43,892 bases of DNA from assembly GCA_964502895.1 (NCBI GenBank), contig CAZCZP010000003.1:1-43892 (forward strand), given 5' to 3'. The translations under genes were made by a program, and so were the position numbers. Shown here piece after piece: positions 9,397 through 30,246 of this stretch. This DNA comes from an uncultured Bifidobacteriaceae bacterium (GTDB taxonomy: Bacteria; Verrucomicrobiota; Verrucomicrobiia; Limisphaerales; JADLHS01). The first letter of the stretch is position 1, and every line of letters starts with the position of its first letter. Under the pieces are notes generated by a model. It ran no database searches and had not been told where the DNA came from. It saw only the letters and a list, made by a program, of their open reading frames with translations.

Positions 9397-9591
9397 TTCC
9401 TTTCTGGCCGTCGAGGTTTTGTCCGGCAGTGACGCGGAAAAAGGGGAGGGACGCGTTCTCTGGCGTCGCTACCAAGGCGAATCGGGGACAACGGGGACCT
9501 TGCCAGCGAAGAATCCTCGGGGCACGGCTGCGGTTTATCTGGAATCGGCTTTCTGTTGCGCACACTTCAGCGTCTTGTCAGGATTCATCCC

Positions 9592-12500: not shown

Positions 12501-12861
12501 GAATCGCACGCCAGGCGGCTGGTGTACTCGCTATGGCCCGGTGGACGAATTGGTCCGGGATACCGATGGTGAATTGGTCCTGCTCAATGGTGGCGACGAA
12601 CTGGCGCTGACTTTTCGAGCGGACCAGTTGCCGCCCAAGCTGGATGGGTTCTCGCGGGATTTTTTCTTGCACGTGGTGGGATGGGACAAAGATGGTGATT
12701 TCCACGTAGGCGAAGGCTGGCGCGTGGAGCCGTTGCCGTTCGTGGGGATGGATGATCAGGCATACGGCGGGCCTGGAGCGCGGACCATCCCGCCCAGGAT
12801 GCTAAATTTCACGACGCGCTGGGTAGGACCGCGAGTGTTGACGAAAGTGATCGAGCGTTAA
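9592..12861 (+). CDS. TPR repeat + FG-GAP/VCBS repeat + ASPIC/UnbV domain protein (CRTAC1-family-like) with a long C-terminal extension
   Basis: Signal-anchor MQKHLLWTIVGLLLVAGVVLLLV. TPR repeats (GDATNAIAVYSQAVAFAPESLDARLNLANAYLLAG…). Repeated D-x-N-x-D-G / DxDxDG propeller motifs (DYNHDGRNSLFV, GDLNNDRFEDVV, GDLNNDLRPDLVV, ADYDNDGWLDVI, ADFDNDADTDLVL). ASPIC/UnbV-like segment LKLRLIGNRSNASGLGVRVDV. The ORF track begins at a TTG (9556); the ATG at 9592 gives the typical N-terminus. Confidence 0.9.
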   Translation: MQKHLLWTIVGLLLVAGVVLLLVRRPEGDAFERLMTRGAGYLERGDATNAIAVYSQAVAFAPESLDARLNLANAYLLAGEDQKVIEQCHEALNLDHESGAAYYLMGVAHLHLNQAEQAVQAFQQSQRIEPAVTALNFQLGLAQERLGHIDEAVATFETMLQFEPEHPSAHYQLSRLYQRANRAEDAAKEMEKHQQIVAKNPDRPAGSRPFEVCKYTEPRMAFKLEQPDARGISVRFGDATAEAFGPRAGEYRAPMAVLDYNHDGRNSLFVMEGQNAFRLLNNQGGRFEPGDQLLAGKPDVVYRDCLVGDLNNDRFEDVVVLGEQASHAFRFATNGEAREVTTAAGLQDLRGRDGWLADLDFTGRLDLLTVQPDGQGLRVHRNLGNFYFKEDTTNSGLPAVMSGVEHVAVEDWNNEDLPGVIISRQNQPPVYFPKQRAGTFVETNSPADWPVGSTIATGDLNNDLRPDLVVGGADEVAIVFGGAVPRGRIPVKTQPKGILLADYDNDGWLDVICFGTEVRAWRNLGKGGFADETSALGLDKIGQIETAVAADFDNDADTDLVLGTAGGLRFLRNEGGNANKQLKLRLIGNRSNASGLGVRVDVMAGRWRTRRSLQKLPFEIGVGKHDKIDALKIHWFDLATTAVDVQVQAQAFPMVELTVPAGSCPYLYAWDGKRFRFVTDILGASPLGLPVAKGRYIEADPEEFLALGDDKQFPPKDGKYEVRITEELREVLYLDHAKLVVVDHPVGTVVHPTSKLRPGKPFPPHELWTLQPLASPRRAFRNDQLDVTEALARCDKVMVSPVKLREPQLRGLAEPFSVTMDFGDLPTNKPLVLALTGWLRFGGGMANVAASLDAKLPFPFPRLEAELPDGSWKPVAADVGAPSGKTKTILVELENKLLPGVRRLRLTSAFEIHWDLALLCEKADHSQSRHTALAAERTDLRWHGFGEFEELPDHLPLTPRYEQTRSTPPWNRTPGGWCTRYGPVDELVRDTDGELVLLNGGDELALTFRADQLPPKLDGFSRDFFLHVVGWDKDGDFHVGEGWRVEPLPFVGMDDQAYGGPGARTIPPRMLNFTTRWVGPRVLTKVIER

Positions 12862-13065
12862 GTTCGCGGGCGGGTTGAGCAGTCGGTGACAACCGGCAAG
12901 GATTGAGGGCTGAGTGGCTTGGCAACCGATGCTTGTGACACTTTTCAGGGCCAACTTGAAAATATTTCTTGCATTCGTGCAACGATTTTGTTTCATTGAA
13001 AACGTCCCTAACAAATCCAGTAGTAAAAAAGTCGCACCAAAGCACCCAATCGCTATCCAGCGTTT

Positions 13066-16000: not shown

Positions 16001-16137
16001 CGATTATCACTTACACAGGGGTCCTGCAATCATCCGCGGTGGTTACCGGGCCTTACACCGATGTCAGTGGGGCTACGAGTCCCTACTCAACACCCTCCAC
16101 TGGTCCGGAAAGATACTTCCGCGCCAGGTCGCCGTAA
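13066..16137 (+). CDS. Large secreted protein: N-terminal unknown domain, two Ig-like (I-set-type) domains, a PA14-like domain, and a C-terminal concanavalin/LamG-like domain
   Basis: Signal peptide MKIPTQIPLAILSACFLAGSG. Ig-like repeats (ITTNPQDTFAVVGGTATFTVVAQGPSKIQWTKNGTPIAG… and ITTQPVSASAVEGRSASFSVGV…VQWLKNGSPVVG…). PA14 hallmark GWVKPDVTGDYHFFIRSDDASALFINS…LYAIVALIKEGGGGDFLQVAWR (about nt 14098-14640). LamG/ConA-like WTRVGLMARNEL…WLRLQRRGSTLRGFRSMDGTTWVDQG. Ends ERYFRARSP. Confidence 0.9.
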   Translation: MKIPTQIPLAILSACFLAGSGSSMLGASIGASFIGRGAGAGAILLPSETAGAVPQSSWNNVDSGDPVVDGTTLSLLDSAGSFTGVKIIYDAGDSWNSDGGTATPDEKLMKGIIKANPDPDLAPINNSDRMVFTITNLPAGATYNVLVYSSENGAGARMDLTVGATTYYIDQINNFSVQSGGLFVPATSTTAGAYEFGPNYAGYTNVSPAANGTITITAKKLIEDNGAGAQINDGIGVAGIQLVQVSGPAFPPNTDTCSITTNPQDTFAVVGGTATFTVVAQGPSKIQWTKNGTPIAGAINPTLVYTPVLADDGAQIRAVVYNNVITNTSTAATLFVDPVTPPTLTQGFLTVERWEGIGGTAVSAVQAAIETPTAPTRTLFAAGPNLAQTSPNVNDFGARVSGWVKPDVTGDYHFFIRSDDASALFINSTNTTSGTNAMPDHTAATGVAVAQETGCCEGFKEPNPGVGQPYETTTDAIHLEAGKLYAIVALIKEGGGGDFLQVAWRLTTDSTPASQLQPIPAANCFTMASGAGQRASITTQPVSASAVEGRSASFSVGVTTMPVAGLFGVQWLKNGSPVVGATTTPYATPPVALADNNAQYQAVAFTLRGPLTSSPPAVLTVIPDTFPPIPAAGAITKFGAGVQVGIGFDEAVNQADLVPGNFTVLGATTATVSFPTNSYGDYKGILIDTTGLVAGNTYTARVSNVRDLKGNQIPAGGVDVPFTVGNNIGWAESGVPKRPGQVIPVGADGFDILNGGRKEWEAYDEITMAYTKKTNDFDVRVQVVYAEPGSQWTRVGLMARNELDVGEGDGTGGVNADASAYAQTHVNPSQTLWSSGRIDPTGLTPANTTPNNGHEQNQRLAKGVGTSGWGAAGTSPTYPNAWLRLQRRGSTLRGFRSMDGTTWVDQGTTTLTDQQADMFVGPFIAVETGNIWNGADHNVFTSPFDPKFDRLFLAQFRNFGDIVTVVTPTLSISGSGANTIITYTGVLQSSAVVTGPYTDVSGATSPYSTPSTGPERYFRARSP

Positions 16138-16166
16138 TTGACTTCGCATTGATTGTTCGATTCATC

Positions 16167-16200
16167 GAAGACCGGATGATTTCATCCGGTCTTCGCCATT
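16167..16200 (+). terminator. Probable intrinsic terminator after the PA14-protein gene
   Basis: Perfect 13-nt inverted repeat GAAGACCGGATGA-tt-TCATCCGGTCTTC (16167-16194) followed by GCCATTTTC. Sits 30 nt after the stop at 16137 and before the next start at 16228. Confidence 0.55.
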
Positions 16201-16227
16201 TTCGGGAAAGAGGATTGCAGGAAGCCG

Positions 16228-19200
16228 GTGAAAGCACAGAATAGGTGGAGTCGAAGTTCCAAAGCCAAACTTGCATTTGCCGTGTTCCGTTTCCGCAATA
16301 ATCACATTCTGCTTCTGGTCATGCTCGGTTGTTTCTCCTGGCGGGCAACCGGCGCGGACTACAAATGGGAAGATGGCCCGAATTTCCGACGCGTGAAACT
16401 TCATCCGAACGGTGCCGGCAAGGATGGATTTACCCAATTGTCTCCTCAAGAAACTCAAATTCATTTTGCCAACACTCTCTCTGAGGAAAGAACGCTATCC
16501 AGTCAGATTCTGCCCAGCGGTTCCGGGGTTGCTGCCGGGGACGTGGATGGCGATGGATTGTGCGACCTCTATTTCGGCGCGCTGAAGACGGGAAGCCGCC
16601 TTTACCGGAATCTTGGAAATTGGAAGTTCGAGGACATCACTGGCAGGACCGGCGTTGGTTGCCCGAATCTGGATGTAACCGGCGCGGCGCTGGTGGATTT
16701 CGACGGCGATGGCGACCTGGACCTGATTGTGAATTCGCTGGGTGGAGGCACACATTTTTTCGTAAACGACGGCAAAGGCAATTTTACGGGTTCAAAGGAA
16801 GTCCTCAACGTCGGCCTGGGTGGGATGCCGCTGGCATTGGCCGATTATGACGGGGACGGGTGGTTGGACCTCTACGTGGCGAATTACCGGCTTAACTCAA
16901 TCGCTGATCGGGACGTACGCTACAGTTTGAGGACCGTCGGGGGAGAACTTGTCGTTGCCGCCATCAACGGCAAACCGTTGACCGACCCCGAGTGGACCAA
17001 TCGGTTTCAATTTCAAATCAAGCACGAGGGCGGAAATGTCCGGTTTGCCAAAGAGGAACTGGGTGAACCGGATGTACTGTATCGGAACGTGGGCAAAGGC
17101 GAATTCAAACAGGTGCCCTGGACCGGAGGTGTATTCCTGGATGAAACCGGCGAACCGTTGAAACACCCACCGTTCGATTGGGGATTAAGCGTCATGTTTC
17201 ACGACCTGAACGGTGATGGGAAACCCGACATATACGTCTGCAACGACTTTAACTCCCCCGATCGCATTTGGATTAATGCCGGACAAGGGCGCTTCCGCGC
17301 CATGGACTGGACCGCCATCCGGCAAATCCCATTTTCCTCGATGGGCGTTGATGTTGCCGACGTGGACGGAGATGGATTCGAGGACATATTTGTGTGTGAG
17401 ATGTTGAGCCGGGAGCATCAGCGACGCCTGGTGCAACGACCCAATTCCATGCCGGAAGTTCCTTCACCGGGCAGGATCCAGGACCGGCCACAACATGCCC
17501 GGAATATGCTCTACTTGAACCGTCGTGACGGCACTTACGCCGAAGTCGCCCAGTATGCCGGCCTCGAAGCATCCGAGTGGTCGTGGACGCCCATGTTTCT
17601 GGACGTAGATCTGGATGGCTATCCCGATTTGCTCGTCGCCAACGGCTTTGCGCGCGACAACATGAACGTTGACGCCCTGGAAGCCATGCACCGGGCGAGC
17701 AGGGGTCAACCGGAATCGGCCCAGGTTACCATACAGCAACGACGACTATTCCCAAAACTGGCCACGCCCAACTGCGCCTTTCGCAATCTTGGAGGCGTAA
17801 GATTCACCGAAGTCGGGCGGGTATGGGGATTCGATTCAGCCGTGATTTCGCAAGGAATGTGTCTGGCGGATCTTGACAACGATGGCGACTTGGACGCGGT
17901 GGCCAACAATTTTAACAGCCCCGCGAGCATTTATCGCAACGACGCCGCCAAGCCGCGCGTTGCCGTAATGTTGAAGGGCCTGCCGCCCAACACCCGGGGC
18001 ATCGGCGCAAAGATTCGCGTTTATGGCGGGCCCGTGCCCGCACAATCCCAGCAGATGATCTGCGGTGGGCGTTATCTTTCGTCCGATCAACCCTTGCGCG
18101 TGTTTGCTGCTGGCGCGCTGACGAACTTGTTGCGGATCGAGGTGGACTGGCCGCGCGGATCGCGAAGCGTCGTGAATGGCGCGGTGGCCAACTTCGTTTA
18201 TGAAATAAATGAAGCCGGCGCGGTTCCGTTTACGCGGCAATCGGCGGCAACGAATTCCCCCTTTTTTCAAGATGTCAGCCGATTGCTTTCGCACGAGCAC
18301 CACGACGATGCCTCCGACGATTTCGCCCGCCAACCAACATTGCCGCGGCGATTGAGCCAGTTGGGTCCCGGTTTGTGCTGGAGTGATGTTGACGGTGACG
18401 GCTGGGACGATCTGGCGATTGGCGGCGGGAAAGGAGGCGCCCTAGCGGTATTGATGAACGATCGGCAGGGTGGCTTCACGCAAAGCCGCGTTTCGACTCC
18501 GGCCAAGCCGTTGACGCGCGACCAAACCGGTGTGCTCGCGTGGCCGCGAACACCTGAGCGCGTGGTCGTCTTGGGCGGATCGGCAAATTACGAGGATGGC
18601 TCTGCGGATGGCGCAAGCGTGTTGGTACATGACCCGATAGCAGGAACCGCAAGCGGACTCATTCCGGCCAGACAGGAAAGCGTTGGCCCTTTGGCGTTGG
18701 GTGATTTGGCTGGTAATGATGAACTGGCACTGTTCGTTGGCGGGCGCATGATCGCTGGCAAATATCCACAGGCGGCGAGTTCACGCATTTTCCGCAGCCG
18801 CGCAGGCAAATTGGAGCTGGACGAAGCGAGCAGCAAAGTGCTTGAACAAGTTGGGCTGGTGAGCGGCGCGGTCTGGAGCGACCTGGACGGCGACGGCTTA
18901 CCCGAATTGCTGCTCGCATGTGAGTGGGGCCCTTTGAAAATATTCCGAAACGTGAATGGCAAACTTCACCCGTGGAACCCGCCGGTCACCACCACCACCA
19001 ACTCTTCATCCTCAACTCTCAACCAGCTTACAGGTTGGTGGAATGGAATCACCACAGGCGACTTCGATGGCGACGGTCGGCTTGACATTATTGCCAGCAA
19101 CTGGGGCCAAAACTCGAAGTACGAACGCCATCGCGCGTCGCCCCTGCGCGTGTATTTCGGCGACTTCTCCGGCCAAGGCATGCACGCCGTGTTGGAATCC

Positions 19201-20031
19201 TATTTTGAGCTTGGGATGGGCAAGTATGTGCCAGGGCGGCGGCTTGAGGTGCTGGCGGAAGCAATGCCGTTTTTGCGGGGTCAGTTCGGGACGCATCAGG
19301 CGTTTGCCAACGCCGGCGTGGATGAAGTGCTGCGAGATTACAAAACTACCGTTCAGTATTTGGAGGCCAACTGTCTCGAAACGATCTTGTTGCTCAACCG
19401 CGGCGACAGACTGGAAAAGCGTGTGCTGCCCGCGGAAGCCCAGTTTGCGCCCGCGTTCGGCATTGTGGTTGCAGATTACGACGGCGACGGGCGCGAAGAC
19501 GTGTTCTTGAGTCAGAATTTCTTTGCGGAAGAACCGGAAACTTCGAGATGCGATGCCGGACGCGGCCTGTGGTTGAGAGGAGATGGTCGTGGTGGGTTGA
19601 ACGCCGTGCCCGGGCCGGAAAGCGGCGTCATGGTCTATGGCGAGCAACGGGCTGCAGCCGCGGCGGATTTCGACCGTGACGGCAGAGTGGATTTGGTGGT
19701 GACCCAGAACGCGGCGGAAACCCGGTTGTTCAGAAATCTCCGAGGCAAACCGGGATTGCGCGTGCGGTTGCAGGGGCCTCCCGGAAATCCGTTGGGCTAC
19801 GGCGTGCAGTTGCGGTTGAAGCGCGGCGAGCAACTCGGTCCAGTCCGTGAGGTCCGCGGCGGCGGAGGGTATTGGTCGCAAGACAGTCCGGTGCAGGTAA
19901 TCGGCGGAGTCGAGCCGCCGACGCAAATATGGGTGCGCTGGCCGGGCGGCAAGACTTTCACCGTGGACGTTCCGGCTGACGCTATGGAGGTACAAATCTC
20001 CATGGACGGACGAATCAGTCGTTTGAAATAG
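16228..20031 (+). CDS. CRTAC1-family-like exoprotein with two [FG-GAP/VCBS propeller + ASPIC/UnbV] modules
   Basis: GTG start with a hydrophobic N-terminus. Many Ca-binding repeats (GDVDGDGLCDLYF, VDFDGDGDLDLIV, ADYDGDGWLDLYV, HDLNGDGKPDIYV, ADVDGDGFEDIFV, ADLDNDGDLDAV…). Two ASPIC/UnbV segments (RVAVMLKGLPPNTRGIGAKIRVYGG… and GLRVRLQGPPGNPLGYGVQLRL…GGGYWSQDS). Confidence 0.9.
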   Translation: MKAQNRWSRSSKAKLAFAVFRFRNNHILLLVMLGCFSWRATGADYKWEDGPNFRRVKLHPNGAGKDGFTQLSPQETQIHFANTLSEERTLSSQILPSGSGVAAGDVDGDGLCDLYFGALKTGSRLYRNLGNWKFEDITGRTGVGCPNLDVTGAALVDFDGDGDLDLIVNSLGGGTHFFVNDGKGNFTGSKEVLNVGLGGMPLALADYDGDGWLDLYVANYRLNSIADRDVRYSLRTVGGELVVAAINGKPLTDPEWTNRFQFQIKHEGGNVRFAKEELGEPDVLYRNVGKGEFKQVPWTGGVFLDETGEPLKHPPFDWGLSVMFHDLNGDGKPDIYVCNDFNSPDRIWINAGQGRFRAMDWTAIRQIPFSSMGVDVADVDGDGFEDIFVCEMLSREHQRRLVQRPNSMPEVPSPGRIQDRPQHARNMLYLNRRDGTYAEVAQYAGLEASEWSWTPMFLDVDLDGYPDLLVANGFARDNMNVDALEAMHRASRGQPESAQVTIQQRRLFPKLATPNCAFRNLGGVRFTEVGRVWGFDSAVISQGMCLADLDNDGDLDAVANNFNSPASIYRNDAAKPRVAVMLKGLPPNTRGIGAKIRVYGGPVPAQSQQMICGGRYLSSDQPLRVFAAGALTNLLRIEVDWPRGSRSVVNGAVANFVYEINEAGAVPFTRQSAATNSPFFQDVSRLLSHEHHDDASDDFARQPTLPRRLSQLGPGLCWSDVDGDGWDDLAIGGGKGGALAVLMNDRQGGFTQSRVSTPAKPLTRDQTGVLAWPRTPERVVVLGGSANYEDGSADGASVLVHDPIAGTASGLIPARQESVGPLALGDLAGNDELALFVGGRMIAGKYPQAASSRIFRSRAGKLELDEASSKVLEQVGLVSGAVWSDLDGDGLPELLLACEWGPLKIFRNVNGKLHPWNPPVTTTTNSSSSTLNQLTGWWNGITTGDFDGDGRLDIIASNWGQNSKYERHRASPLRVYFGDFSGQGMHAVLESYFELGMGKYVPGRRLEVLAEAMPFLRGQFGTHQAFANAGVDEVLRDYKTTVQYLEANCLETILLLNRGDRLEKRVLPAEAQFAPAFGIVVADYDGDGREDVFLSQNFFAEEPETSRCDAGRGLWLRGDGRGGLNAVPGPESGVMVYGEQRAAAAADFDRDGRVDLVVTQNAAETRLFRNLRGKPGLRVRLQGPPGNPLGYGVQLRLKRGEQLGPVREVRGGGGYWSQDSPVQVIGGVEPPTQIWVRWPGGKTFTVDVPADAMEVQISMDGRISRLK

Positions 20032-20058
20032 CCAGCAGAACGGCATTTTGAGCCTGGG

Positions 20059-22389
20059 GTGGAAGAAGGCTTGACCTGTTTCCGCACCGATGGGAATTTC
20101 CACTCCACCGTGCGAGTCTGTTTTTATTATGTCCTGTTAGGTCTTTGCACGCTCTTCGCGAACGTTCGTGCGGCATCCACGACTGCGGGACCCGTACCTA
20201 CAAACTCAAACCCCCGCGCTGCGCTACGTTCGCTGCCGACTCCGGCCGAAAGCACACGGAAGATGATCCAACGGCTTGCGGAGATACGAGAGTCGCGGGA
20301 TCCGATCCAACTCAGCTTTTTGAGCGAACAACGAGCGGCAATGCTCGCGCCGATGATCGGGCGCAGCACCAATGCCCTGCAAACGGTGAATCTGCGATAC
20401 AGCCTGGCTGAAACACTGACGGAAGGCGGAGATCCCGAGGCGGCGCTCGAACAGTTCAAACTGATTGAGGACTTCGTAAAGTCGCTCCAACGGCCCCCTG
20501 AGGAGAAATGGCAGGCTGGCTTCCGCATGAGCAAGGCCATTGCCCTCCTTCGCCTTGGCGAACAGGAAAACTGTTTGCGACTTCACAATGCCGACTCCTG
20601 CCTTTTTCCGCTGCGCCCCGCCGCGTTCCACGAAGTCATTCGCGGTTCGCGCGGAGCGGTCACGGTGTTGAAAGAGCAATTGGAGAAACATCCGGACGAT
20701 CTGAGCGCGCGCTGGTTGATCAACATCGCCTATATGACGCTGGGCGAATATCCGGACAAAGTACCGCCGCAATGGCTCATTCCACCCAAGGCCTTCGAAT
20801 CGGATTACGCCTTGCCCCGGTTCCGAAATGTTGCCGGTGCTTTGGACCTGGATATTGACGGACTCGCGGGCGGATGCATCCTGGACGATTTCGAGAACGA
20901 TGGCTTTCTGGACGTGATTACGTCGTCAATGCATCTGGACGGCCAAATCCGCTACTTTCATAACGATGGCAACGGCAAGTTCACAGAGCGCACGACGGAA
21001 GCGGGCTTGCGCGGGCTGCCCGGGGGCCTGAATATCCAGCAAACCGATTGCAACAATGACGGCTTCCTCGACGTTTGGATCGAACGCGGCGGCTGGTATC
21101 AGAAACAGGGCCGCATTCCCGGTTCGCTGCTGCGCAACAACGGCGATGGCACGTTCACCGATGTGACCGAACAAGCGGGTCTGCTCAGCGCTCGTCCCTC
21201 GCAAACTTGCGTCTGGTTTGACTATGATGGAGACGGCTGGCTCGATCTGTTTAAGGGCAACGAAACCTCTGATCCGGCTGATCCCGATCCCTGCGAACTG
21301 TTCCGCAACAATCGCGACGGGACATTCACTGAATGGGCGGCGGCTTGTGGAGTGGATGCGAAGGCCATCGTAAAAGGTGTTGCCTGCGCGGATTATGACA
21401 ACGACCGCCGACCAGACCTCTACCTGTCAGTTTTGAACGGTCCGAACCAGCTGTTCCACAACGACGGCCCCAACGCTTTGGGCCAATGGAAGTTCAGCGA
21501 CGTTACTACTCGTGCGCGAGTCCGTGAACCGATCCTCAGTTTTCCAACCTGGTTTTTCGACTACGACAACGACGGTTGGGAAGACCTGTTCGTCTCGGGC
21601 TACAAGATGGGTAACCTCGGCGAAGTGGCCGCCGATTATCTTGACCTGCCACATGCAGGAACCCCGCCAAAACTTTATCGCAACAATCAGGACGGCACAT
21701 TTACCGATGCAACCGAGGCAATGAAACTCAGCCACGTGCTCCTCACGATGGGCTGTAATTTTGGCGATCTCGACAACGACGGCTGGCTTGATTTCTATCT
21801 TGGCACCGGCGAGCCCAGCCTTGGCTCGGTCATGCCCAATCGCATGTTCCGGAACGCCAGTGGAAAATTCTTTCAGGATGTTACTACGGCGGGCGGTTTT
21901 GGACATTTGCAAAAAGGCCATGGGGTCGGTTTCGCGGACCTCGACAATGACGGTGACCAGGATGTGTTCATCGTCCTGGGTGGCGCCTACCCCGGCGACC
22001 GGGCCCGAAGCGCGCTTTTCTTGAACCCGGGCAACAAGAATCACTGGATCAAACTCAAGCTGGAAGGAACCCGATCCAATCGAGCCGCCATCGGCGCGCG
22101 CATCAAGATTTCCGTCACCACGCCCGACGGCCCGCGGTCCATTCACAAGACGGTCAACAGCGGCGGAAGCTTCGGCTCATCGCCGTTGCTTCAGGAAATC
22201 GGTCTGGGAAATGCCACCGCCGTCGCGTCAGTGGAAATCTTTTGGCCCACCTCCGGCAGACGCCAGAAGCTCACCGGGTTTGAACTCGACCGGGCTTACC
22301 GCATCCGCGAAGACGGTTCGTCACCTGTGGTTTGGGAACTCAAGCAAGTCGTGTTCGAATCGTCGAAGGCTCACGCGCATGGCCATTGA
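20059..22389 (+). CDS. CRTAC1-family-like protein: helical (TPR-like) N-terminal region + FG-GAP/VCBS repeats + ASPIC/UnbV domain
   Basis: Repeats DDFENDGFLDVI, TDCNNDGFLDVW, FDYDGDGWLDLF, ADYDNDRRPDLY, FDYDNDGWEDLF, GDLDNDGWLDFY, ADLDNDGDQDVF. ASPIC/UnbV segment HWIKLKLEGTRSNRAAIGARIKISV…NSGGSFGSS. GTG start at 20059; an alternative GTG at 20110 would give the signal-like MRVCFYYVLLGLCTLFANVRAAS. Confidence 0.88.
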   Translation: MEEGLTCFRTDGNFHSTVRVCFYYVLLGLCTLFANVRAASTTAGPVPTNSNPRAALRSLPTPAESTRKMIQRLAEIRESRDPIQLSFLSEQRAAMLAPMIGRSTNALQTVNLRYSLAETLTEGGDPEAALEQFKLIEDFVKSLQRPPEEKWQAGFRMSKAIALLRLGEQENCLRLHNADSCLFPLRPAAFHEVIRGSRGAVTVLKEQLEKHPDDLSARWLINIAYMTLGEYPDKVPPQWLIPPKAFESDYALPRFRNVAGALDLDIDGLAGGCILDDFENDGFLDVITSSMHLDGQIRYFHNDGNGKFTERTTEAGLRGLPGGLNIQQTDCNNDGFLDVWIERGGWYQKQGRIPGSLLRNNGDGTFTDVTEQAGLLSARPSQTCVWFDYDGDGWLDLFKGNETSDPADPDPCELFRNNRDGTFTEWAAACGVDAKAIVKGVACADYDNDRRPDLYLSVLNGPNQLFHNDGPNALGQWKFSDVTTRARVREPILSFPTWFFDYDNDGWEDLFVSGYKMGNLGEVAADYLDLPHAGTPPKLYRNNQDGTFTDATEAMKLSHVLLTMGCNFGDLDNDGWLDFYLGTGEPSLGSVMPNRMFRNASGKFFQDVTTAGGFGHLQKGHGVGFADLDNDGDQDVFIVLGGAYPGDRARSALFLNPGNKNHWIKLKLEGTRSNRAAIGARIKISVTTPDGPRSIHKTVNSGGSFGSSPLLQEIGLGNATAVASVEIFWPTSGRRQKLTGFELDRAYRIREDGSSPVVWELKQVVFESSKAHAHGH

Positions 22390-25300
22390 GTTTGACCACC
22401 GGATCGGGCGACCGCGCCGTGAGTATGTTCGTCAGCATCTCGCGCTCTTGCGCGGCTGCGCATTGGGAATTCTGGCGGTGAAGATATCCTTGACCTCGCA
22501 CGCCGCCGATATTCAATGGGTTGCAGGAACCGGCTACCGTTCGGCCCCCTTGCCGCCCGCCGTTCAACAAGTCGAAAGCGGTTTTGCGCTCCTCCCACCC
22601 GGCGCCACTGGAATCAACTTCACGAACATTCTCACGGACGAGAAAACTGCGGAGAACCAGATTCGCCTCAATGGTTCGGGTCTGGCTTTCGGCGATGTTG
22701 ATGGCGACGGTTGGTGCGACGTTTACCTTTGCGGCTTGGAGAATGGCAATCGGCTCTACCGCAATCTTGGCGGGTGGAAATTCGAAGATGTCACCGGGCG
22801 GGCGGGCGTCGCTTGTGCCGATCAGTATTCGGGCGGCGCGGTATTGGCGGACGTCAACGGCGACGGCAGTCTGGACTTGCTCGTCACAGGACTGGGCGTG
22901 GGGACGAGGCTTTTTTTCAACGACGGCAAGGGAATTTTTCGTGAAGCCACCGAGAGCGGACTGGTCCGCAGATTTGCCGGCACCACCATGGCGTTGGCCG
23001 ACATTGATGGCGATGGCGACCTCGATTTATATGTCGCCAATTATCGGACCATGACAATCCGCACGACGGGCCTGCCTTTGCTAAGCATCAACGGCCAGCT
23101 CGCCATTCGTCCTGAAGATCGTGAGGATTATGAATTGAATGCCCAGGGACTCATCATTGAAAAAGGCGAGCCGGATTTTCTCTACGTCAACGATGGGCAT
23201 GGCCGGTTCGAGTCGGTTTCGTGGACCAACGGCGTTTTTCTCGACGACGCAGGCCAGCGATTCACGAAGGCTCCAAAAGACTGGGGACTTGCCGCGGCCT
23301 TCCGCGACCTCAATGGTGATGGCGCGCCAGACCTTTACGTGTGCAACGATTTCATCACGCCGGATCGCATCTGGCTCAATGACGGTCGTGGCCGTTTTCG
23401 GGCCTTTCCGAGCCTGGCTTTGCGCAACACCAGCACGTTTTCCATGGCGGTGGATTTCGCCGACATCAATCGCGATGGCTTCGACGACATTTTCCTGGCT
23501 GATATGCTGGACGTGAATCACCAGATGCGCATCGTTCAATTCCAGTTCACCGAACCGATGCCCGCGGGGCTGGCAGGGATGTTGGAGCGCGCTCAGGTTA
23601 ATCGGAACACGCTTCAGTTGAATCGCGGCGACGGCACCTACGCCGAAGCCGCCTATTACGCGGACATGGAATCCTCCGGCTGGACGTGGTCGGGCATTTT
23701 TCTGGACGTGGACCTGGATGGCTATGAAGACATGATCATGTCCACGGGCTACCCGTTTGACACGCAGGATTTGGACGCCGGCGCGCGCATTGCCGCCATG
23801 GGCCGGATGGGCAAGAACCAGAAGTACAAGATTCTCATGTATCCCAAACTGCGACTGCCGCGCATGGCGTTTCGCAACCTCGGCAACCTGCGCTTCGAGG
23901 ACACCAGCGCGCGGTGGCGATTCAACGACGTTGGCGTGAGTCACGGCATGGCGCTCGCGGACCTCGACAACGACGGCGACCTCGATGTGATCATGAACAG
24001 CTTGAACGAACCTGTCCGCATCTACCGAAATGACTGCACGTCGCCGCGGGCAGCCGTGCGTCTCAAGGGATTGTCGCCCAACACGCGCGGCATCGGCGCG
24101 AAGATTACTGTTCGCGGCGGCGCCGTTCCCGCGCAAAGCCAGGAAATGATGTCTGGCGGCCGCTACCTTGCCGGAGACGACTCCCTGCGCGTCTTCGCCG
24201 TTGGCTCTGAAACGAACAAAATGGCGATTGAGGTGGCTTGGCGCAGTGGCAAGAAAAGTGTGCTCACCAATCTTGCGGCAAATCGCATTTACGAAGTTGA
24301 CGAAACCGACGCGCGCACTTCCAAACCAGAATCAGGCATCCGGAATCCACTGTCTCCATTGTTTGAAGACGTCAGCCAACTGATTTCCCACAGCCACCAC
24401 GACGAACCCTTCGATGACTTTCAGCGGCAGCCGTTGTTACCAAGAAAACTGAGCCAGCTTGGTCCAGGCCTGGCCTGGGGCGATCTCGATGGAGACGGCC
24501 GGGATGACTTGGTCATCGGGAGCGGCAAAGGTGGGCGGCTGGCGGCGTTGCGCAACGACGGCAAAGGCGGATTCACGCGCTTCGCTGGAAAGGCATTCGA
24601 TGAAGCTGTGGTTCGTGATCAGACGGGCGTTGTCTTGTGGCACGGCAATGGTCGCGAGCCCAGAATTCTCGCCGGCTCGGCAGCCTACGAGCCGACCGCG
24701 AAAGAAGGGGCAAGCGTGCGGTCGTTTGATTCCGCCAGCGGTTCCGAACAAATCGCGGAGGAAACAGAATCCAGTGTCGGCGCGCTCGCATTGGGCGACG
24801 TTTACGGAGATGGCACGTTGTGTCTGTTTGTCGGCGGGCGTGTTGTGCCCGGGCGTTATCCCGAACCGGCAAGCTCGCGCCTCCATCGAAGCCGAAATGG
24901 CAAGTTCGGGTTGGACGATCAAGCCAAGGGCGTCCTCGATCAGGTTGGCCTGGTGAGCGGCGCGGTCTTCAGCGATCTCGACGGAGACGGATTTCCCGAA
25001 CTGATTCTCGCGTGCGAATGGGGTCCGCTCAAAATTTTCCGAAACGACCGGGGCCGACTCGTTCGCTGGGATCCGCCGGTAAAAACCATCAACCAACAAC
25101 TCTCAACCCTCAGCCAGTTCACCGGCTGGTGGAACGGCGTGACGGCGGCTGATCTTGATGGTGATGGCCGCATGGATTTGATCGCCGGTAACTGGGGACT
25201 GAACACAAAATATCGTGCGACTGCGGAAAACCCGCGAAAAATTTATTACGGTGACTTTGCGGAGAGCGGCGCGTTGACCGCGATCGAGGCATACTTTGAT

Positions 25301-26125
25301 CGAAGCTTGGGCAAGGAAGTTCCCGAACGCGAGTTTGATGCGATGGCCGCTGCGATGCCGTTTCTGCGCGGCAACTTCGCGACGCACCGCGCTTACGGTG
25401 CCGCCAGTGTGGCCGAGGTCCTGGGTGAACGGTTCAAGTCAGCGAAGCAAGTCAGCGCGAATACGCTTTCCTCCATGATTTTCTTGAATCGTGGTGATCA
25501 TTTCGAGGGCAGGGCACTGCCAACGGAGGCGCAATTGTCTCCGGCCTTCGGGATAGTGGCCGCTGATTTTGACGGCGATGGTGGCGAAGACATTTTACTC
25601 AGTCAGAATTTCTTTGCCGTTGAATCACAGTCCTCGCGTTGCGATGCGGGTCGCGGTTTGTTGTTGAAGGGCGATGGCAAAGGAAATCTGCGACCGGTGC
25701 CGGGCCAGGAAAGCGGCATCGCCGTTTACGGCGAGCAACGCGGCGCGGCCGCCGCGGATTTTAATCGCGATGGCCGCGTGGATTTTGCCGTGACTCAAAA
25801 CGCGAACGCTACAAAGTTATACCGGAATCTGGGCGCTCAGCCCGGTCTCCGTGTGCGCCTGGCCGGGCCGCCGGGGAATCCGACCGGGATTGGGGCCGTC
25901 CTGCGGCTCAGGTCTGGCGACCGCTTCGGACCCGCGCGTGAAATCCATGGCGGCTCCGGCTATTGGTCGCAAGACAGTCCGGTTCAAGTTCTGGCGCTTC
26001 TGCCCGAACCTCTGAAACTTTGGGTGCGTTGGCCCGGCGGTAAAACGACAATGGTTGATCTGCCCGCCGGCGTTCGCAATGTTGAACTCTCGATGGGAGG
26101 CAAGGTAACGGTTATGAGTGATTGA
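22379..26125 (+). CDS. CRTAC1-family-like exoprotein with two [FG-GAP/VCBS propeller + ASPIC/UnbV] modules; paralogue of 16228..20031
   Basis: Collinear by eye with 16228..20031 (for example RLYRNLGGWKFEDVTGRAGVAC vs RLYRNLGNWKFEDITGRTGVGC, and GLRVRLAGPPGNPTGIGAVLRL vs GLRVRLQGPPGNPLGYGVQLRL). The track ORF starts at 22211 inside the previous gene. The ATG at 22379 (MAIEFDHRIGRPRREY…) overlaps the upstream stop by 11 nt (ATGGCCATTGA). Confidence 0.9.
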   Translation: MAIEFDHRIGRPRREYVRQHLALLRGCALGILAVKISLTSHAADIQWVAGTGYRSAPLPPAVQQVESGFALLPPGATGINFTNILTDEKTAENQIRLNGSGLAFGDVDGDGWCDVYLCGLENGNRLYRNLGGWKFEDVTGRAGVACADQYSGGAVLADVNGDGSLDLLVTGLGVGTRLFFNDGKGIFREATESGLVRRFAGTTMALADIDGDGDLDLYVANYRTMTIRTTGLPLLSINGQLAIRPEDREDYELNAQGLIIEKGEPDFLYVNDGHGRFESVSWTNGVFLDDAGQRFTKAPKDWGLAAAFRDLNGDGAPDLYVCNDFITPDRIWLNDGRGRFRAFPSLALRNTSTFSMAVDFADINRDGFDDIFLADMLDVNHQMRIVQFQFTEPMPAGLAGMLERAQVNRNTLQLNRGDGTYAEAAYYADMESSGWTWSGIFLDVDLDGYEDMIMSTGYPFDTQDLDAGARIAAMGRMGKNQKYKILMYPKLRLPRMAFRNLGNLRFEDTSARWRFNDVGVSHGMALADLDNDGDLDVIMNSLNEPVRIYRNDCTSPRAAVRLKGLSPNTRGIGAKITVRGGAVPAQSQEMMSGGRYLAGDDSLRVFAVGSETNKMAIEVAWRSGKKSVLTNLAANRIYEVDETDARTSKPESGIRNPLSPLFEDVSQLISHSHHDEPFDDFQRQPLLPRKLSQLGPGLAWGDLDGDGRDDLVIGSGKGGRLAALRNDGKGGFTRFAGKAFDEAVVRDQTGVVLWHGNGREPRILAGSAAYEPTAKEGASVRSFDSASGSEQIAEETESSVGALALGDVYGDGTLCLFVGGRVVPGRYPEPASSRLHRSRNGKFGLDDQAKGVLDQVGLVSGAVFSDLDGDGFPELILACEWGPLKIFRNDRGRLVRWDPPVKTINQQLSTLSQFTGWWNGVTAADLDGDGRMDLIAGNWGLNTKYRATAENPRKIYYGDFAESGALTAIEAYFDRSLGKEVPEREFDAMAAAMPFLRGNFATHRAYGAASVAEVLGERFKSAKQVSANTLSSMIFLNRGDHFEGRALPTEAQLSPAFGIVAADFDGDGGEDILLSQNFFAVESQSSRCDAGRGLLLKGDGKGNLRPVPGQESGIAVYGEQRGAAAADFNRDGRVDFAVTQNANATKLYRNLGAQPGLRVRLAGPPGNPTGIGAVLRLRSGDRFGPAREIHGGSGYWSQDSPVQVLALLPEPLKLWVRWPGGKTTMVDLPAGVRNVELSMGGKVTVMSD

Positions 26126-26161: not shown

Positions 26162-28453
26162 GTGAACAAAGCAGTGCAATCCAGTATCAAGTCGCGGTGG
26201 ATGCGTTTTCAAAGTGTCCTGGCCACGCCTGTTAACGGCGCATCGCTGGCGGCATTTCGCATCGCGCTGGGATTGGTCATGGCGCTGGAGGCTTACTCGC
26301 TCTTCCGGCCGAACGTTGCCGCTATCAGCACCGGGCTGAGTCCGCTCCAGACTTATTACACTTCTGCCGAAATCAAATTCCATTTTCCGTACGTGGGCTT
26401 CGAGTGGGTGCCGTTGTTGCCTGCCCAGTGGATTCATGTCCTGGTCTGCCTCCAGGCATTGGCGGGACTGACCATGGCGCTTGGATTATGCTATCGCGTC
26501 TCAGCCGCAACGGTCTTTCTGACGTGGGGCTACCTGTTCGTCGTGGAATCCACCAGATCCTACTGGCAAAGCCACTATTACCTGGAGGCGCTGCTGACTT
26601 TTTTGATGATCTGGATGCCTGCGGCCCGCAGGTACAGCCTGGATGCGTGGCTGGCGCGAGGTAAATTACAATCTCAAACCGTCCCGTCCTGGCCCATCGC
26701 CCTCTTGCGTGGGCAATTGGTCATCACCTACTTCTACGCCGGCGTCGCCAAACTCAACGCCGATTGGTTGCTGGACGCCGTACCCACTCGCTGGGTGCTC
26801 GCGCAGCCCAGTATCCTCGCTCCATACGAGCCATACCTTTCAGCCTCGGTCCTCGAATCCATAAGGGGAATTCTGCAGAGCGCTTGGTTCGCCTACTTCA
26901 TCAATTACGCCGGAGCCGTATTCGATCTTGGTGTCGGATTCATGCTTGTGGCCCGTCGCACGAGACTATTTGGCATGGTCCTGATGGTGCTGTTTCATGC
27001 CACCAACCATTTCATCATCTTTGATGACATCGGTTGGTTTCCACTGGTTGGGGTCGCCACCGCCTTCATTTTTCTGGAGCCTGACTGGCCGGAGCGGCTT
27101 CGGAATCGCATTTGCAACCTTTGGTCAGCCAACTCGGAGCACCGCAAAGGCGCAAAGGTTCGGAAGGAACAGGCGGCAAAGGTCGCGCGCCTCGTTTCAA
27201 CTGAAAACAAGCGTGCGCCCGCACCGGGCATCCAGCCAGCCCAAGGCCTCCAGCCCGCGACCTTCGTCCTGGCCTGGCTCGTCTGGCAGTCCTTGATGCC
27301 GATCCGCCATTTTCTAATCCGGGCCGATTCACGCTTCACTTACGAATCGCAGAGCTTCAGTTGGCGGCTCAAAGCGGACGCGCGCCGGGCGGCTCCGGCG
27401 GAAATCACAATCAAAGATCAAGTGCTTGTCCCTGATTCCGTCGGCACGACCAATGCGAGTCCAACGGCGCCCGCGACGCGTGTTAATTGGGAACACTGGC
27501 GCGGCGAGCGCGTGCTCTATCGCCGCGTGTCACCCGGGCGGATTGATTGGGAGCGCCTGCCGGAAATTTTCGTCTCGTTGGAACCCATCATCGGCGAGCG
27601 AGTGCTTTACAATCCTCACAGCGGTTCGAGAAGCAATCGGTCGGAAACCGTTTCCCTTGATTACATCCGCTCGCTCTGGCAAGGCCGTTTCGGCCACCAG
27701 CCCAAGGCTGTCAACGCAACGGGTGGTCTGAGTGGCTTTCTTCGCGCGGTCGCCAACGGTTTGCGCGCAGGCGGGAATCAACTGGAAGCCAACGAACTCG
27801 ATCGGCTGGCGGTGCAATATGCGGACAACCACGGCCAGGCCAAGGCGATACCCGACTACGCCGAGGTCGTTGATTTGTTGCGCGGTTTGCACCAACGCGA
27901 CAAAACGGGGGCCATGACCCGATTGCTTCGCTCATTGTCCCCCTTCGCAATGGAAGGAGAGCCCGTGCGACCTTCGCCATGCCTCGTGATTGATGACCCG
28001 CTGTTTCTGGAAGAACAGAGGCGCTCCACCAACGCGCCTCTGGTGATTTACACCACCGACCTAGGTCCGGACGGAATAAAAATGTTGCCCCAGGTTTGCA
28101 TCTTCGATTCGCAAGAACGGCCCGAACTCCCCCCGTACATCTGGTGGAACAGTCCGAAAGATCTGACTCTGTCGAAGCTCATGCACGTCAGCGCGCAACC
28201 GTTTTACCTGAGGCGCTATGCGCGTCGCGTCGCGGAACTCTGGCAATCGGAATACGGACGCCGCCCGGCCATTCACGCCATCACCTTGATGTCACTCAAC
28301 GGGCGGCCGCCCCAACCCATGGTTGATCCCAACGCGGATCTGGCCTCGGTGTCGGTTGCCTGGTTTCGTCACAATCCCTGGATCAGAGACTTGGAGACGC
28401 CGCGCATTCCAAAGTCCGCCGTCGCCTCGAATCCGGGATTCACTTCACCCTGA
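26162..28453 (+). CDS. Vitamin K-dependent gamma-glutamyl carboxylase homologue (HTTM domain membrane protein, full-length VKGC-like architecture)
   Basis: By-eye alignment to human GGCX recalled from memory. [16 protein letters not shown] ~ [29 protein letters not shown] ~ [26 protein letters not shown] ~ [36 protein letters not shown] ~ [32 protein letters not shown] ~ FCSPEWPRKL. FSWRLK ~ YSWDMM in the post-membrane domain. At 763 aa it is similar in length to the 758-aa human enzyme. GTG start at 26162; the ATG at 26201 ([16 protein letters not shown]) is an alternative. Confidence 0.9.
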   Translation: [763 protein letters not shown]

Positions 28454-30098: not shown

Positions 30099-30246
30099 GA
30101 AACGCAGTGTTCGATTTGAGCATAATCGCGTCAAGTGAGAATCTAGGTTCGCCGTTTGCCGCGTTTGATCGCCTTCGTCCTTGTGCTTGGGATACGGTTG
30201 CGTTGTATTACGGCCGCAGCCAGACCACAACTTCGCCTAGCTTGCT

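What the first reader, a model, noticed from the sequence alone, without database searches (positions are those of the whole stretch)
26162..28453. Full-length bacterial VKGC homologue retaining the proposed catalytic Lys and His
Similarity to human GGCX (aligned by eye from memory) runs through the HTTM membrane domain and into the following soluble domain; it is not just a generic HTTM hit. In ORF numbering from 26162, K197 (AAA, 26750-26752) in [13 protein letters not shown] aligns with human K218 in [13 protein letters not shown]. H138 (CAC, 26573-26575) in [10 protein letters not shown] aligns with H160 in SWNNHSYLY. The LGLCYR(V/I)S block is identical apart from V/I. The residue aligned with human Cys99 is not Cys (FHFP vs CRFP). 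As I recall, a Leptospira orthologue was reported to have vitamin K epoxidase but no carboxylase activity, so the physiological reaction of bacterial members remains open. No VKOR-like gene is visible in the window.
Basis: partly seen in the sequence, partly recalled or inferred. Interest (0 to 1): 0.75.

Follow-up and report, generated by a model that had tools for sequence, protein, structure and literature searches.

The report
Bacterial vitamin K carboxylase-family membrane enzyme
This gene encodes a bacterial relative of the human blood-clotting enzyme gamma-glutamyl carboxylase that keeps the residues that activate vitamin K but not those that hold the human substrates; such bacterial relatives are already known, and their targets are still unknown.

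Summary
ORF 26162-28453 (+) matches Pfam HTTM (E 9e-56) and the VKGC lumenal domain (E 1e-16), and matches human GGCX structures by sequence (E 1e-39; family profile 6e-51) and by fold (Foldseek E 1e-17). Formal alignments put K197 on K218 and H138 on H160.

The quinol-activating half of the active site is near-invariant in 212 family members: K218, D263, W223, G259, F286, H287, N290.

The substrate half is not kept:
- H160 is His in 155 members and Tyr in 53.
- N159 is Ser, Y395 is Gln, H440 is Gln and K217 is Ala.
- The C99-C450 disulfide is absent.
- Human residues 510-758 (clamp B and the C-terminal domain) have no counterpart.
- About 260 bacterial-specific periplasmic residues lie between the two lumenal segments that match GGCX.

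So "full-length" overstates the match.

The family is large (601 representatives at E<1e-30), mostly in Verrucomicrobiota and Planctomycetota MAGs, and is already annotated as VKGC or HTTM. Conservation of catalytic residues in bacterial orthologues is published (Wu 2025), as is a bacterial carboxylase, MloH.

It is most likely a periplasm-facing, menaquinol- and O2-dependent carboxylase-type enzyme with an unknown acidic substrate. No VKOR gene is nearby. In a subset of loci it sits beside giant FG-GAP/ASPIC/PA14 secreted proteins. Verdict: a new member of a known kind, of modest interest.

The parts
26162..28453 (+). Complete ORF of the VKGC-family protein. It is 763 aa from GTG 26162; the database model starts at ATG 26201 and gives 750 aa.
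   Evidence: PDB phmmer E about 1e-39 to human GGCX. Foldseek E 1.8e-17.
26228..27088 (+). HTTM membrane domain, residues 23-309, covering TM1-TM8 and the cap loop.
   Evidence: Pfam PF05090, E 8.7e-56, profile positions 3-259 of 259. AlphaFold2 helices. Positive-inside count of 19 K/R per 100 aa in cytoplasmic loops against 4 per 92 in periplasmic loops.
26570..26575 (+). S137-H138, aligned with human N159-H160 on the Glu/CO2 side of the active site.
   Evidence: H160 column: His 155, Tyr 53 of 212. N159 column: Ser 136, Asn 73.
26750..26752 (+). K197 (AAA), aligned with the human catalytic base K218. The preceding residue A196 replaces K217.
   Evidence: Lys in 210 of 212 family members.
26762..26767 (+). 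D201-W202, equivalent to human D222 (cap-clamp contact) and W223 (stacks on K218).
   Evidence: Asp in 193 of 212 and Trp in 204 of 212. Residue roles from PMC12647623 and PMC12589487.
26924..26926 (+). D255, equivalent to human D263, which hydrogen-bonds to vitamin K and sits next to K218.
   Evidence: Asp in 210 of 212. Role from PMC12647623.
26993..27007 (+). F278-H279-A-T-N282, equivalent to human F286, H287 and N290, which form the floor of the naphthoquinone pocket and line the tail tunnel.
   Evidence: 211, 210 and 209 of 212. Roles from PMC12589487.
27251..27316 (+). TM9, residues 364-385. It follows a basic cytoplasmic loop (residues 309-363, 12 K/R).
27356..27385 (+). The LL9-like linker [10 protein letters not shown], residues 399-408. 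W401 is invariant. R402 and K404 replace human D400 and M402, the wall between the quinone and Glu pockets.
   Evidence: Trp 212 of 212, Arg 191, Lys 170..
27317..28450 (+). Periplasmic C-terminal domain, residues 386-763. It contains a first alpha/beta unit, a four-helix insert, and a second alpha/beta unit.
   Evidence: AlphaFold2 models with pLDDT 83 and 81. hhalign of the first half against the second gives E 5.7e-5, probability 66%. Foldseek of this domain alone finds no PDB hit at E<=0.001.
28169..28396 (+). Segment homologous to GGCX clamp A, residues 670-745, equivalent to human about 441-509. It includes N713 and R715, equivalent to the human bridge-loop residues N474 and R476 that contact cap residue D222.
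   Evidence: Pfam PF22777 profile positions 75-150. HMMER. hhalign E 1.4e-5. N and R are invariant in alignments A1 and A3.
9556..26125 (+). Context only: five same-strand genes upstream for giant secreted repeat proteins. They are TPR+FG-GAP (9556-12861), PA14/Ig (13066-16137), and three FG-GAP/ASPIC-UnbV proteins (16228-20031, 20059-22389, 22211-26125). They are candidate partners or substrates; this is not shown.
   Evidence: Pfam. Relatives of these proteins cluster near VKGC homologues in other genomes: 12/104 adjacent genes against 2/184 genes four or more positions away.

Best explanation
The gene encodes an inner-membrane enzyme of the vitamin K-dependent carboxylase (GGCX/VKGC) family.

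Shown:
- A nine-helix HTTM domain with the N-terminus in the cytoplasm.
- An active site and a C-terminal domain of about 380 aa on the periplasmic side.
- The complete set of residues that bind the naphthoquinol and start catalysis in human GGCX: K197 as base, with D255, W202, G251, F278, H279 and N282.

Inferred mechanism: the enzyme binds the cell's own menaquinol. K197 deprotonates it, and O2 converts it to the epoxide through a strongly basic oxygenated intermediate. That base removes a proton from a periplasmic substrate held next to the quinone, most probably followed by addition of CO2 (carboxylation). F293 and H138 line the CO2/carboxylate pocket.

The substrate is not a Gla-domain protein recognised through a propeptide. 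Clamp B, the C-terminal domain, K217, Y395 and H440 are missing or changed. Two family-conserved basic residues, R402 and K404, sit in the wall of the substrate pocket, which suggests an anionic (carboxylate-bearing) substrate. Secreted proteins encoded nearby are the only candidates the data offer.
For: - Family membership: Pfam HTTM E 8.7e-56 and VKGC_lumenal_dom E 1.3e-16, both above their curated cut-offs. Human GGCX is the only significant PDB relative by sequence (E 1e-39; family profile E 6e-51) and by fold (Foldseek E 1.8e-17 to 1e-7, next-best target E 0.05).
- Catalytic core: it is conserved across 212 full-length relatives down to about 30% identity. Counts are K218 210, D263 210, G259 211, F286 211, H287 210, N290 209, W223 204, W399 212 and F299 189. 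The residue roles come from cryo-EM and mutagenesis papers.
- Cap-clamp contact: the D222-N474/R476 contact is kept as D201-N713/R715.
- Topology: positive-inside counts support an N-in orientation with a periplasmic active site.
- Selection: the family has 601 representatives at E<1e-30, most of the best hits with the same length and architecture, so the protein is under selection.
- Precedent: MloH is a bacterial orthologue that carboxylates.
- Cofactor: by my own knowledge of taxonomic descriptions, Verrucomicrobiota and Planctomycetota use menaquinones, so the cofactor is available.
Against: - No activity was measured.
- The Glu-holding residues are not kept: N159 is Ser, Y395 is Gln and variable, H440 is Gln, and H160 alternates with Tyr.
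- By my memory of Rishavy 2005, which I could not read here, the Leptospira orthologue epoxidises without carboxylating. Carboxylation therefore cannot be assumed.
- No VKOR-type epoxide reductase lies in the window or within 10 kb of 66 homologues. The tblastn part of that test is insensitive, and whole genomes were not searched.
- No gene is a universal neighbour, so the substrate is unidentified.
Confidence: 0.6

Rival explanations
1. The enzyme is a menaquinol epoxidase/oxygenase whose strong base is not used for carboxylation. The base could drive other chemistry, such as epimerisation, another C-H deprotonation or peroxide chemistry. Alternatively, quinol oxygenation itself could be the physiological reaction.
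For: The quinol-activating residues are near-invariant, whereas the Glu/CO2-side residues vary: H160 is His or Tyr, N159 is Ser, and Y395 is variable. From my memory of Rishavy 2005, the Leptospira orthologue has epoxidase but no carboxylase activity; only the existence of that homologue is confirmed.
Against: F299, which stacks on CO2 in GGCX, is Phe in 189 of 212 relatives, and W223 is conserved. A large, conserved periplasmic domain with a conserved cap-clamp contact suggests a macromolecular or specific substrate. MloH shows that bacterial members can carboxylate.
Confidence: 0.22
2. The enzyme is a true protein gamma-glutamyl (or aspartyl) carboxylase. Its substrates are the giant secreted FG-GAP/ASPIC-UnbV/PA14 proteins encoded beside it, which would give bacteria Gla-type calcium-binding residues.
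For: In the window the gene is the last of six same-strand genes, the other five being such proteins, and it starts 37-76 bp after the last one. Relatives of these proteins are concentrated close to VKGC homologues: 12/104 adjacent genes, 13/160 genes two to three positions away, and 2/184 further away, Fisher p 1.4e-4. This is seen in both Verrucomicrobiota and Planctomycetota loci. All are predicted to lie in the same compartment as the active site.
Against: Only about a fifth of loci show this neighbourhood, and the loci are not phylogenetically independent. Such repeat proteins are very common in these phyla. No propeptide-like motif or Glu-rich region was identified. The propeptide clamp B and the processivity residues are absent. 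Gla has never been reported in bacterial proteins, to my knowledge.
Confidence: 0.1
3. The protein is a non-catalytic HTTM membrane protein, for example a maturation or export factor like SdpB or a DoxX-like quinone-binding subunit, that only resembles GGCX.
For: There are weak sub-threshold matches to SdpB (TIGR04033, 18 bits), DoxD and DoxX.
Against: These scores are far below their cut-offs: 18.2 against 178.4 bits, 13.5 against 22.7, and 12.5 against 23.6. The catalytic Lys, Asp, Trp, Phe, His and Asn are near-invariant across the family. The VKGC-specific lumenal domain is present.
Confidence: 0.04
4. The gene is a recent horizontal acquisition from an animal host, as proposed for Leptospira, without an indigenous bacterial role.
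For: The HTTM family is named for horizontal transfer (Schultz 2004, cited). The Leptospira homologue is presumed to be horizontally acquired.
Against: Identity to human GGCX is only about 27% in the membrane domain. The family is large, deep and full-length within Verrucomicrobiota and Planctomycetota. It has its own periplasmic architecture. GC content is 0.587 at the gene against 0.56-0.61 in the flanks.
Confidence: 0.03

Closest known systems
Human gamma-glutamyl carboxylase (GGCX, P38435; for example PDB 9l6q, 9bvk, 9wfc)
   Same: - Nine-helix HTTM membrane domain.
- Catalytic base K218 (= K197).
- D263, W223, G259, F286, H287, N290, F299 and H160 are matched.
- The LL9 Ser-Trp motif is present.
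- About 70 residues of clamp A are matched, including the N474/R476 bridge loop that contacts cap residue D222.
- Predicted topology is the same, with the active site on the non-cytoplasmic side.
   Different: - K217 is Ala.
- There is no C99-C450 disulfide.
- N159 is Ser, Y395 is Gln and H440 is Gln.
- D400 and M402 are replaced by R402 and K404.
- No clamp B jelly roll or C-terminal helices (human 510-758).
- About 260 extra periplasmic residues, including a probable second clamp-A-like unit and a four-helix insert.
- No Gla or propeptide substrates are known in bacteria.
Leptospira VKGC orthologue (Rishavy et al. 2005, JBC; from my memory, not readable here)
   Same: It is a bacterial member of the same family. 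It is reported to oxygenate vitamin K hydroquinone, and its physiological substrate is unknown.
   Different: By my recollection it is thought to be a recent acquisition from animals and is closer to metazoan GGCX. The present protein belongs to a large indigenous Verrucomicrobiota/Planctomycetota clade with a different periplasmic domain. I did not compare the sequences directly.
MloH, the Streptomyces malonomycin-pathway carboxylase (Law et al. 2018, Nat Catal; cited)
   Same: It is a bacterial VKGC orthologue and the experimental precedent for carboxylation by a bacterial family member.
   Different: MloH alpha-carboxylates an aspartyl unit of a PKS-NRPS intermediate and sits in a biosynthetic gene cluster. 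No PKS, NRPS or RiPP genes are in this window. The sequences were not compared here.
Other bacterial HTTM proteins (SdpB family TIGR04033; HTTM-DCC fusions that pair with DUF5819, bioRxiv 10.64898/2026.08.19.745780)
   Same: They share the HTTM membrane fold.
   Different: The present protein scores 18 bits against the 178-bit cut-off for SdpB. It carries the VKGC lumenal domain fused in cis rather than a DCC domain or a separate DUF5819 partner.

Membership tests
Vitamin K-dependent carboxylase (GGCX/VKGC) family | HTTM membrane domain (PF05090) above the curated threshold | tested here: met
   189.8 bits against a 27.7-bit cut-off, covering the whole profile. Foldseek to GGCX structures gives E 1.8e-17.
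Vitamin K-dependent carboxylase (GGCX/VKGC) family | VKGC lumenal domain (PF22777) following the membrane domain | tested here: met
   61.3 bits against a 27.7-bit cut-off, in two stretches. The C-terminal 200 aa alone score 41.8 bits on profile positions 75-150. Only about 100 residues are shared, and the periplasmic domain alone has no significant PDB fold match.
Vitamin K-dependent carboxylase (GGCX/VKGC) family | Catalytic base Lys218 in register | tested here: met
   K197 aligns with K218 in HMMER and MAFFT alignments. Lys in 210 of 212 relatives.
Vitamin K-dependent carboxylase (GGCX/VKGC) family | Naphthoquinone pocket and relay residues (D263, W223, G259, F286, N290, A214) | tested here: met
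   D255, W202, G251, F278, N282 and A193 are all identical to the human residues, and all except A214 (Ala in 143 of 212, otherwise mostly Gly) are near-invariant in the family.
Vitamin K-dependent carboxylase (GGCX/VKGC) family | His160 (Glu carbanion and CO2 pocket) | tested here: met
   H138 is in register. The column is His in 155 and Tyr in 53 of 212 relatives, so it is not a family constant.
Vitamin K-dependent carboxylase (GGCX/VKGC) family | Glu-anchoring and processivity residues (N159, Y395, R406, H440) and K217 | tested here: not met
   These positions are S137, Q397, R408, Q679 and A196. Only R406 is kept.
Vitamin K-dependent carboxylase (GGCX/VKGC) family | Propeptide-binding clamp B (jelly roll) and C-terminal domain (human 510-758) | tested here: not met
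   hhalign finds no match beyond human residue 515. The sequence ends at the position equivalent to human about 509. Foldseek of the periplasmic domain aligns only 50-75 residues of GGCX.
Vitamin K-dependent carboxylase (GGCX/VKGC) family | C99-C450 disulfide | tested here: not met
   F73 aligns with C99, and this column has no Cys in the 120 close relatives. The position of C450 in the HMMER register is not Cys either.
Vitamin K-dependent carboxylase (GGCX/VKGC) family | Quinol- and O2-dependent epoxidation coupled to carboxylation | not testable with these tools
   This needs enzyme assays.
Vitamin K cycle (GGCX plus VKOR) | A VKOR-type epoxide reductase encoded nearby or in the genome | tested here: inconclusive
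   None was found in the window. None is among the recurrent neighbour families of 66 loci. tblastn with VKORC1 and DsbB gave no hit below E 0.27. Whole genomes could not be searched.
MloH-type natural-product carboxylase | Location in a PKS/NRPS or other biosynthetic gene cluster | tested here: not met
   The neighbours are FG-GAP/ASPIC, PA14, TPR, GSDH-like, two-component and housekeeping genes.
SdpB family (TIGR04033) | Score above the NCBIfam cut-off | tested here: not met
   18.2 bits against a 178.4-bit cut-off.

The most novel reading that the evidence does not exclude
This clade could be a bacterial periplasmic protein-carboxylation system. A menaquinol-driven enzyme would install gamma-carboxy-Glu (or carboxy-Asp) residues on the giant secreted FG-GAP/ASPIC-UnbV/PA14 proteins it is clustered with. 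It would recognise them through its own duplicated clamp-A-like periplasmic domain instead of the animal propeptide clamp. That would be the first Gla-type modification of bacterial proteins, and an independent solution to substrate recognition in this family.
Probability: 0.1. Interest if true: 0.8.

Novelty: new member of a known kind. Interest (0 to 1): 0.3.

Why it matters
What bacterial vitamin K-dependent carboxylase homologues do is still open. Only MloH has an assigned reaction.

This analysis shows that a large Verrucomicrobiota/Planctomycetota clade keeps the quinol-activating machinery nearly unchanged but has replaced the substrate-recognition apparatus. It also supplies concrete mutagenesis targets (K197, D255, H138, R402, K404, N713, R715) and a short list of candidate substrates, the co-clustered secreted repeat proteins.

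If the enzyme carboxylates proteins, Gla chemistry would extend to bacteria. If it does not, it would be a natural example of uncoupled quinol oxygenation. As it stands, the gene is an expected, already-annotated family member, and nothing in the window settles its function.

Tried and rejected
- **Lumenal alignment by MAFFT.** The global alignment put human 436-513 on the first periplasmic unit and left R476 in a gap. HMMER, the family profile and hhalign all place human 441-509 on residues 680-748. I rejected the MAFFT register after residue 420.
- **Source record.** The exact-sequence look-up for the source contig found nothing. The cluster look-up gave no name or accession. The organism is therefore inferred only from relatives, which are Verrucomicrobiota MAGs at 56-64% identity.
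- **Leptospira paper.** It could not be fetched by DOI, and two literature searches for it returned only tangential papers.
- **Conserved partner gene.** All-against-all clustering of ORFs from 66 loci and Pfam scans of 104 immediate neighbours found no universal neighbour. DUF4178 plus an M16 peptidase recur only in one closely related freshwater subclade.
- **VKOR/DsbB search.** tblastn with recalled sequences was negative but insensitive.
- **Fold search of the periplasmic domain alone.** No hit at E<=0.001. GGCX was the only recurrent target, over 50-75 residues.
- **Pfam on the first periplasmic half alone.** No hit. The proposed internal duplication therefore rests only on hhalign, E 5.7e-5 with probability 66%.
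- **Promoter and terminator scan around the gene.** Counts were no more than in shuffled sequence.
- **A broad Planctomycetes literature query.** It returned nothing relevant.
Full report

Yes. The + strand carries an uninterrupted ORF from GTG 26162 to TGA 28453, 763 codons. The identical public protein (P0001, 750 aa, from a contig of exactly 43,892 bases) starts at the in-frame ATG 26201, which is M14. The codons quoted are correct: AAA at 26750-26752 is K197 and CAC at 26573-26575 is H138.

**2. Is it a VKGC homologue rather than a generic HTTM protein?**

- Pfam gives HTTM PF05090 at E 8.7e-56 (residues 23-309, full profile). It also gives the VKGC-specific lumenal domain PF22777 at E 1.3e-16, 61.3 bits against a 27.7-bit cut-off.
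- Matches to SdpB, DoxD and DoxX are far below their thresholds.
- Against all PDB sequences the only hits are human GGCX chains, at E about 1e-39, aligning residues 11-419 with human 46-417. A second stretch aligns 682-745 with human 443-506.
- A profile of 45 family members raises this to E 6e-51. The second stretch becomes independently significant at E 0.0013.
- An AlphaFold2 model (pLDDT 83, pTM 0.81) finds only GGCX cryo-EM structures in the PDB. Their E-values run from 1.8e-17 to 1e-7 with TM-scores 0.31-0.49; the next target is at E 0.05.

**3. Register of the catalytic residues**

I recalled the human sequence from memory. It reproduced all 39 residue numbers quoted in PMC12589487. 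HMMER and two MAFFT family alignments agree on the following:

| Human | This protein |
|---|---|
| K218 | K197 |
| H160 | H138 |
| C99 | F73 |
| LGLCYRIS | LGLCYRVS |

**4. What is conserved and what is not**

Residue roles come from recent cryo-EM and mutagenesis work (PMC12589487; PMC12647623). I mapped them onto 212 full-length relatives, which go down to about 30% identity.

The quinol-binding and deprotonation half is almost unchanged:

| Human residue | Residue here | Same residue as human, of 212 |
|---|---|---|
| K218 | K197 | 210 |
| D263 | D255 | 210 |
| G259 | G251 | 211 |
| F286 | F278 | 211 |
| H287 | H279 | 210 |
| N290 | N282 | 209 |
| W223 | W202 | 204 |
| W399 | W401 | 212 |
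| T391 | T393 | 205 |
| F299 | F293 | 189 |

The substrate half is not conserved:
- H160 is His in 155 members and Tyr in 53.
- N159 is Ser here (Ser 136, Asn 73).
- Y395 is Gln here, and the column is variable.
- H440 aligns with Q679.
- K217 is Ala (173 of 212).
- The Cys pair C99-C450 is absent.
- In the LL9 linker, which in GGCX forms the wall between the quinone and Glu pockets, D400 and M402 are replaced by R402 (191 of 212) and K404 (170 of 212).

**5. The periplasmic domain**

- Only two pieces resemble GGCX. One is the LL9 linker with the first strands (to residue 419, equivalent to human 417). The other is about 70 residues at 680-748, equivalent to human 441-509, which is part of clamp A.
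- In the second piece, N713 and R715 align with N474 and R476. These are the human bridge-loop residues that contact cap residue D222. N713, R715 and D201 are all invariant in the close family. The cap-clamp coupling is therefore probably retained.
- Nothing matches human 510-758, the clamp B jelly roll and the C-terminal helices.
- The intervening residues, about 260 of them, form an alpha/beta unit plus four helices.
- hhalign suggests that this first unit is a diverged duplicate of the second (E 5.7e-5, probability 66%). Pfam does not see it, so I treat the duplication as tentative.
- Modelled alone (pLDDT 81), the periplasmic domain has no PDB match at E<=0.001. GGCX recurs only over 50-75 residues at about 2 A rmsd.
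- "Full-length homologue" is therefore an overstatement.

**6. Topology**

Using the model's helices, predicted cytoplasmic loops hold 19 K/R in 100 residues. This includes 12 in the loop before TM9. Periplasmic loops hold 4 in 92. This gives an N-in orientation, as in GGCX, with the active site and the C-terminal domain in the periplasm. This is an inference, not a demonstration.

**7. Distribution**

- The word-indexed search returned more than 300 relatives. Almost all are 700-850 aa and carry both Pfam domains. The few that carry a source name are called "vitamin K-dependent gamma-carboxylase", "HTTM domain-containing protein", DoxX-family membrane protein or "hypothetical protein".
- The exhaustive search found 3,029 representatives at E<1e-3 and 601 at E<1e-30.
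- In species-representative genomes, 66 loci were found. All are MAGs, mostly Verrucomicrobiota (Limisphaerales, Verrucomicrobiales), with some Pirellulales and other Planctomycetota.
- The best relatives are 56-64% identical, so the window probably comes from an uncultured verrucomicrobium.
- GC content at the gene is 0.587, the same as its surroundings.

**8. Genomic context**

- In the window the gene is the last of six + strand genes. The others are TPR+FG-GAP, PA14/Ig, and three FG-GAP/ASPIC-UnbV proteins of 776-1304 aa. The gene starts 37-76 bp after the last of them.
- Downstream, on the other strand, are a GSDH-like beta-propeller and another FG-GAP protein.
- No VKOR, DsbB, PKS/NRPS or RiPP gene is present.
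- Across the 66 loci there is no universal neighbour.
- Relatives of the window's repeat proteins are concentrated close to the carboxylase gene. They make up 12 of 104 adjacent genes, 13 of 160 genes two to three positions away, and 2 of 184 genes further out (Fisher p 1.4e-4). They occur in both phyla.
- The ORF calling was crude and the loci are not independent. This is a lead, not a result.
- One freshwater subclade instead has DUF4178 and an M16 peptidase as neighbours.

**9. Mechanism proposed**

Shown:
- Membership of the VKGC family.
- An intact quinol-activation site.
- A conserved cap-clamp contact.
- Loss of the animal substrate-recognition parts.

Inferred:
- Menaquinol is the cofactor. 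These phyla use menaquinones, by my own knowledge.
- K197 deprotonates the quinol.
- O2 yields the epoxide and a strong base.
- The base deprotonates a periplasmic, probably carboxylate-bearing substrate held near S137, H138, R402 and K404.
- CO2 held against F293 is added.

The carboxylation step is the least secure. The Leptospira orthologue reportedly only epoxidises (my memory of Rishavy 2005; not readable here). MloH, however, does carboxylate.

**10. Comparison with what is known, and novelty**

Bacterial HTTM/VKGC homologues have been known since 2004-2005. MloH (2018) has an assigned reaction. Wu et al. 2025 (PMC12647623, Fig. 6b) already present a tree of 131 eukaryotic and bacterial homologues. 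They include a Planctomycetia bacterium, and they state that the KH2-deprotonation and CO2-stabilising residues are conserved.

The finding is therefore a new member of a known kind. This analysis adds three things:
- Only half of the active site is conserved in this clade.
- H160 alternates with Tyr.
- The periplasmic domain is largely different from the human lumenal domain.

It also adds a weak neighbourhood link to giant secreted repeat proteins. I score interest at 0.3. The most novel reading still open is a bacterial protein-carboxylation system acting on those neighbours. I give it a probability of about 0.1.

Noticed in passing
window 9556-26125 (+): A run of five very large same-strand genes for secreted repeat proteins (Pfam): TPR+FG-GAP (1101 aa), PA14/Ig/Big_5 (1023 aa), and three FG-GAP + ASPIC/UnbV (CRTAC1-like) paralogues (1267, 776 and 1304 aa). 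Similar clusters recur next to VKGC homologues in a subset of other genomes.
   Followed up: partly
window 22211-22389: The listed start of the third ASPIC ORF (ATG 22211) overlaps the end of the preceding ORF by 179 bases. An internal ATG at about 22379 (MAIEF...) is a more likely start.
   Followed up: no
window 30247-30651 (+): A small ORF (134 aa) matches the carboxymuconolactone decarboxylase/AhpD-like family (PF02627, E 3e-5) and carries an ECQFCVNSH CxxC-type motif. It lies 1.8 kb downstream of the carboxylase gene. It is a thiol-redox protein close to a quinol-epoxidising enzyme, but there is no evidence of a link.
   Followed up: partly
window 30832-32478 (-): An FG-GAP repeat protein (548 aa) whose N-terminal region contains CSVCH, a c-type haem-binding CxxCH motif. 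That is unusual for this repeat family.
   Followed up: no
window 28482-30230 (-): A beta-propeller related to glucose/sorbosone dehydrogenase (PF07995, E 9e-11) lies convergent with the carboxylase gene. GSDH-family genes also lie within a few kb of the homologue in six other loci (the L024 group), though without detectable sequence similarity to this one at BLAST E<1e-10.
   Followed up: partly
window 6660-8207 (-): An MFS transporter with a weak EF-hand match near residue 127-147.
   Followed up: no
L024, L025, L029, L031, L032, L041, L043, L058, L061 (neighbours of the homologue): In one freshwater verrucomicrobial subclade, several of whose records are labelled Akkermansia, the carboxylase homologue is flanked by a DUF4178 protein upstream and an M16-family peptidase. 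The peptidase gene overlaps its 3' end by 34 bases on the opposite strand.
   Followed up: partly
window 27317-28450 (+), residues 386-763: The periplasmic domain appears to contain an internal duplication. SWRLKAD...RIDWERLPE...[13 protein letters not shown] resembles PFAMEGE...YIWWNSPKD...[13 protein letters not shown] (hhalign E 5.7e-5, probability 66%).
   Followed up: partly
L059, L060, L054, L064: In several MAG loci the homologue is split into two or three overlapping ORFs. These are probably frameshifts or assembly errors, possibly pseudogenes.
   Followed up: no
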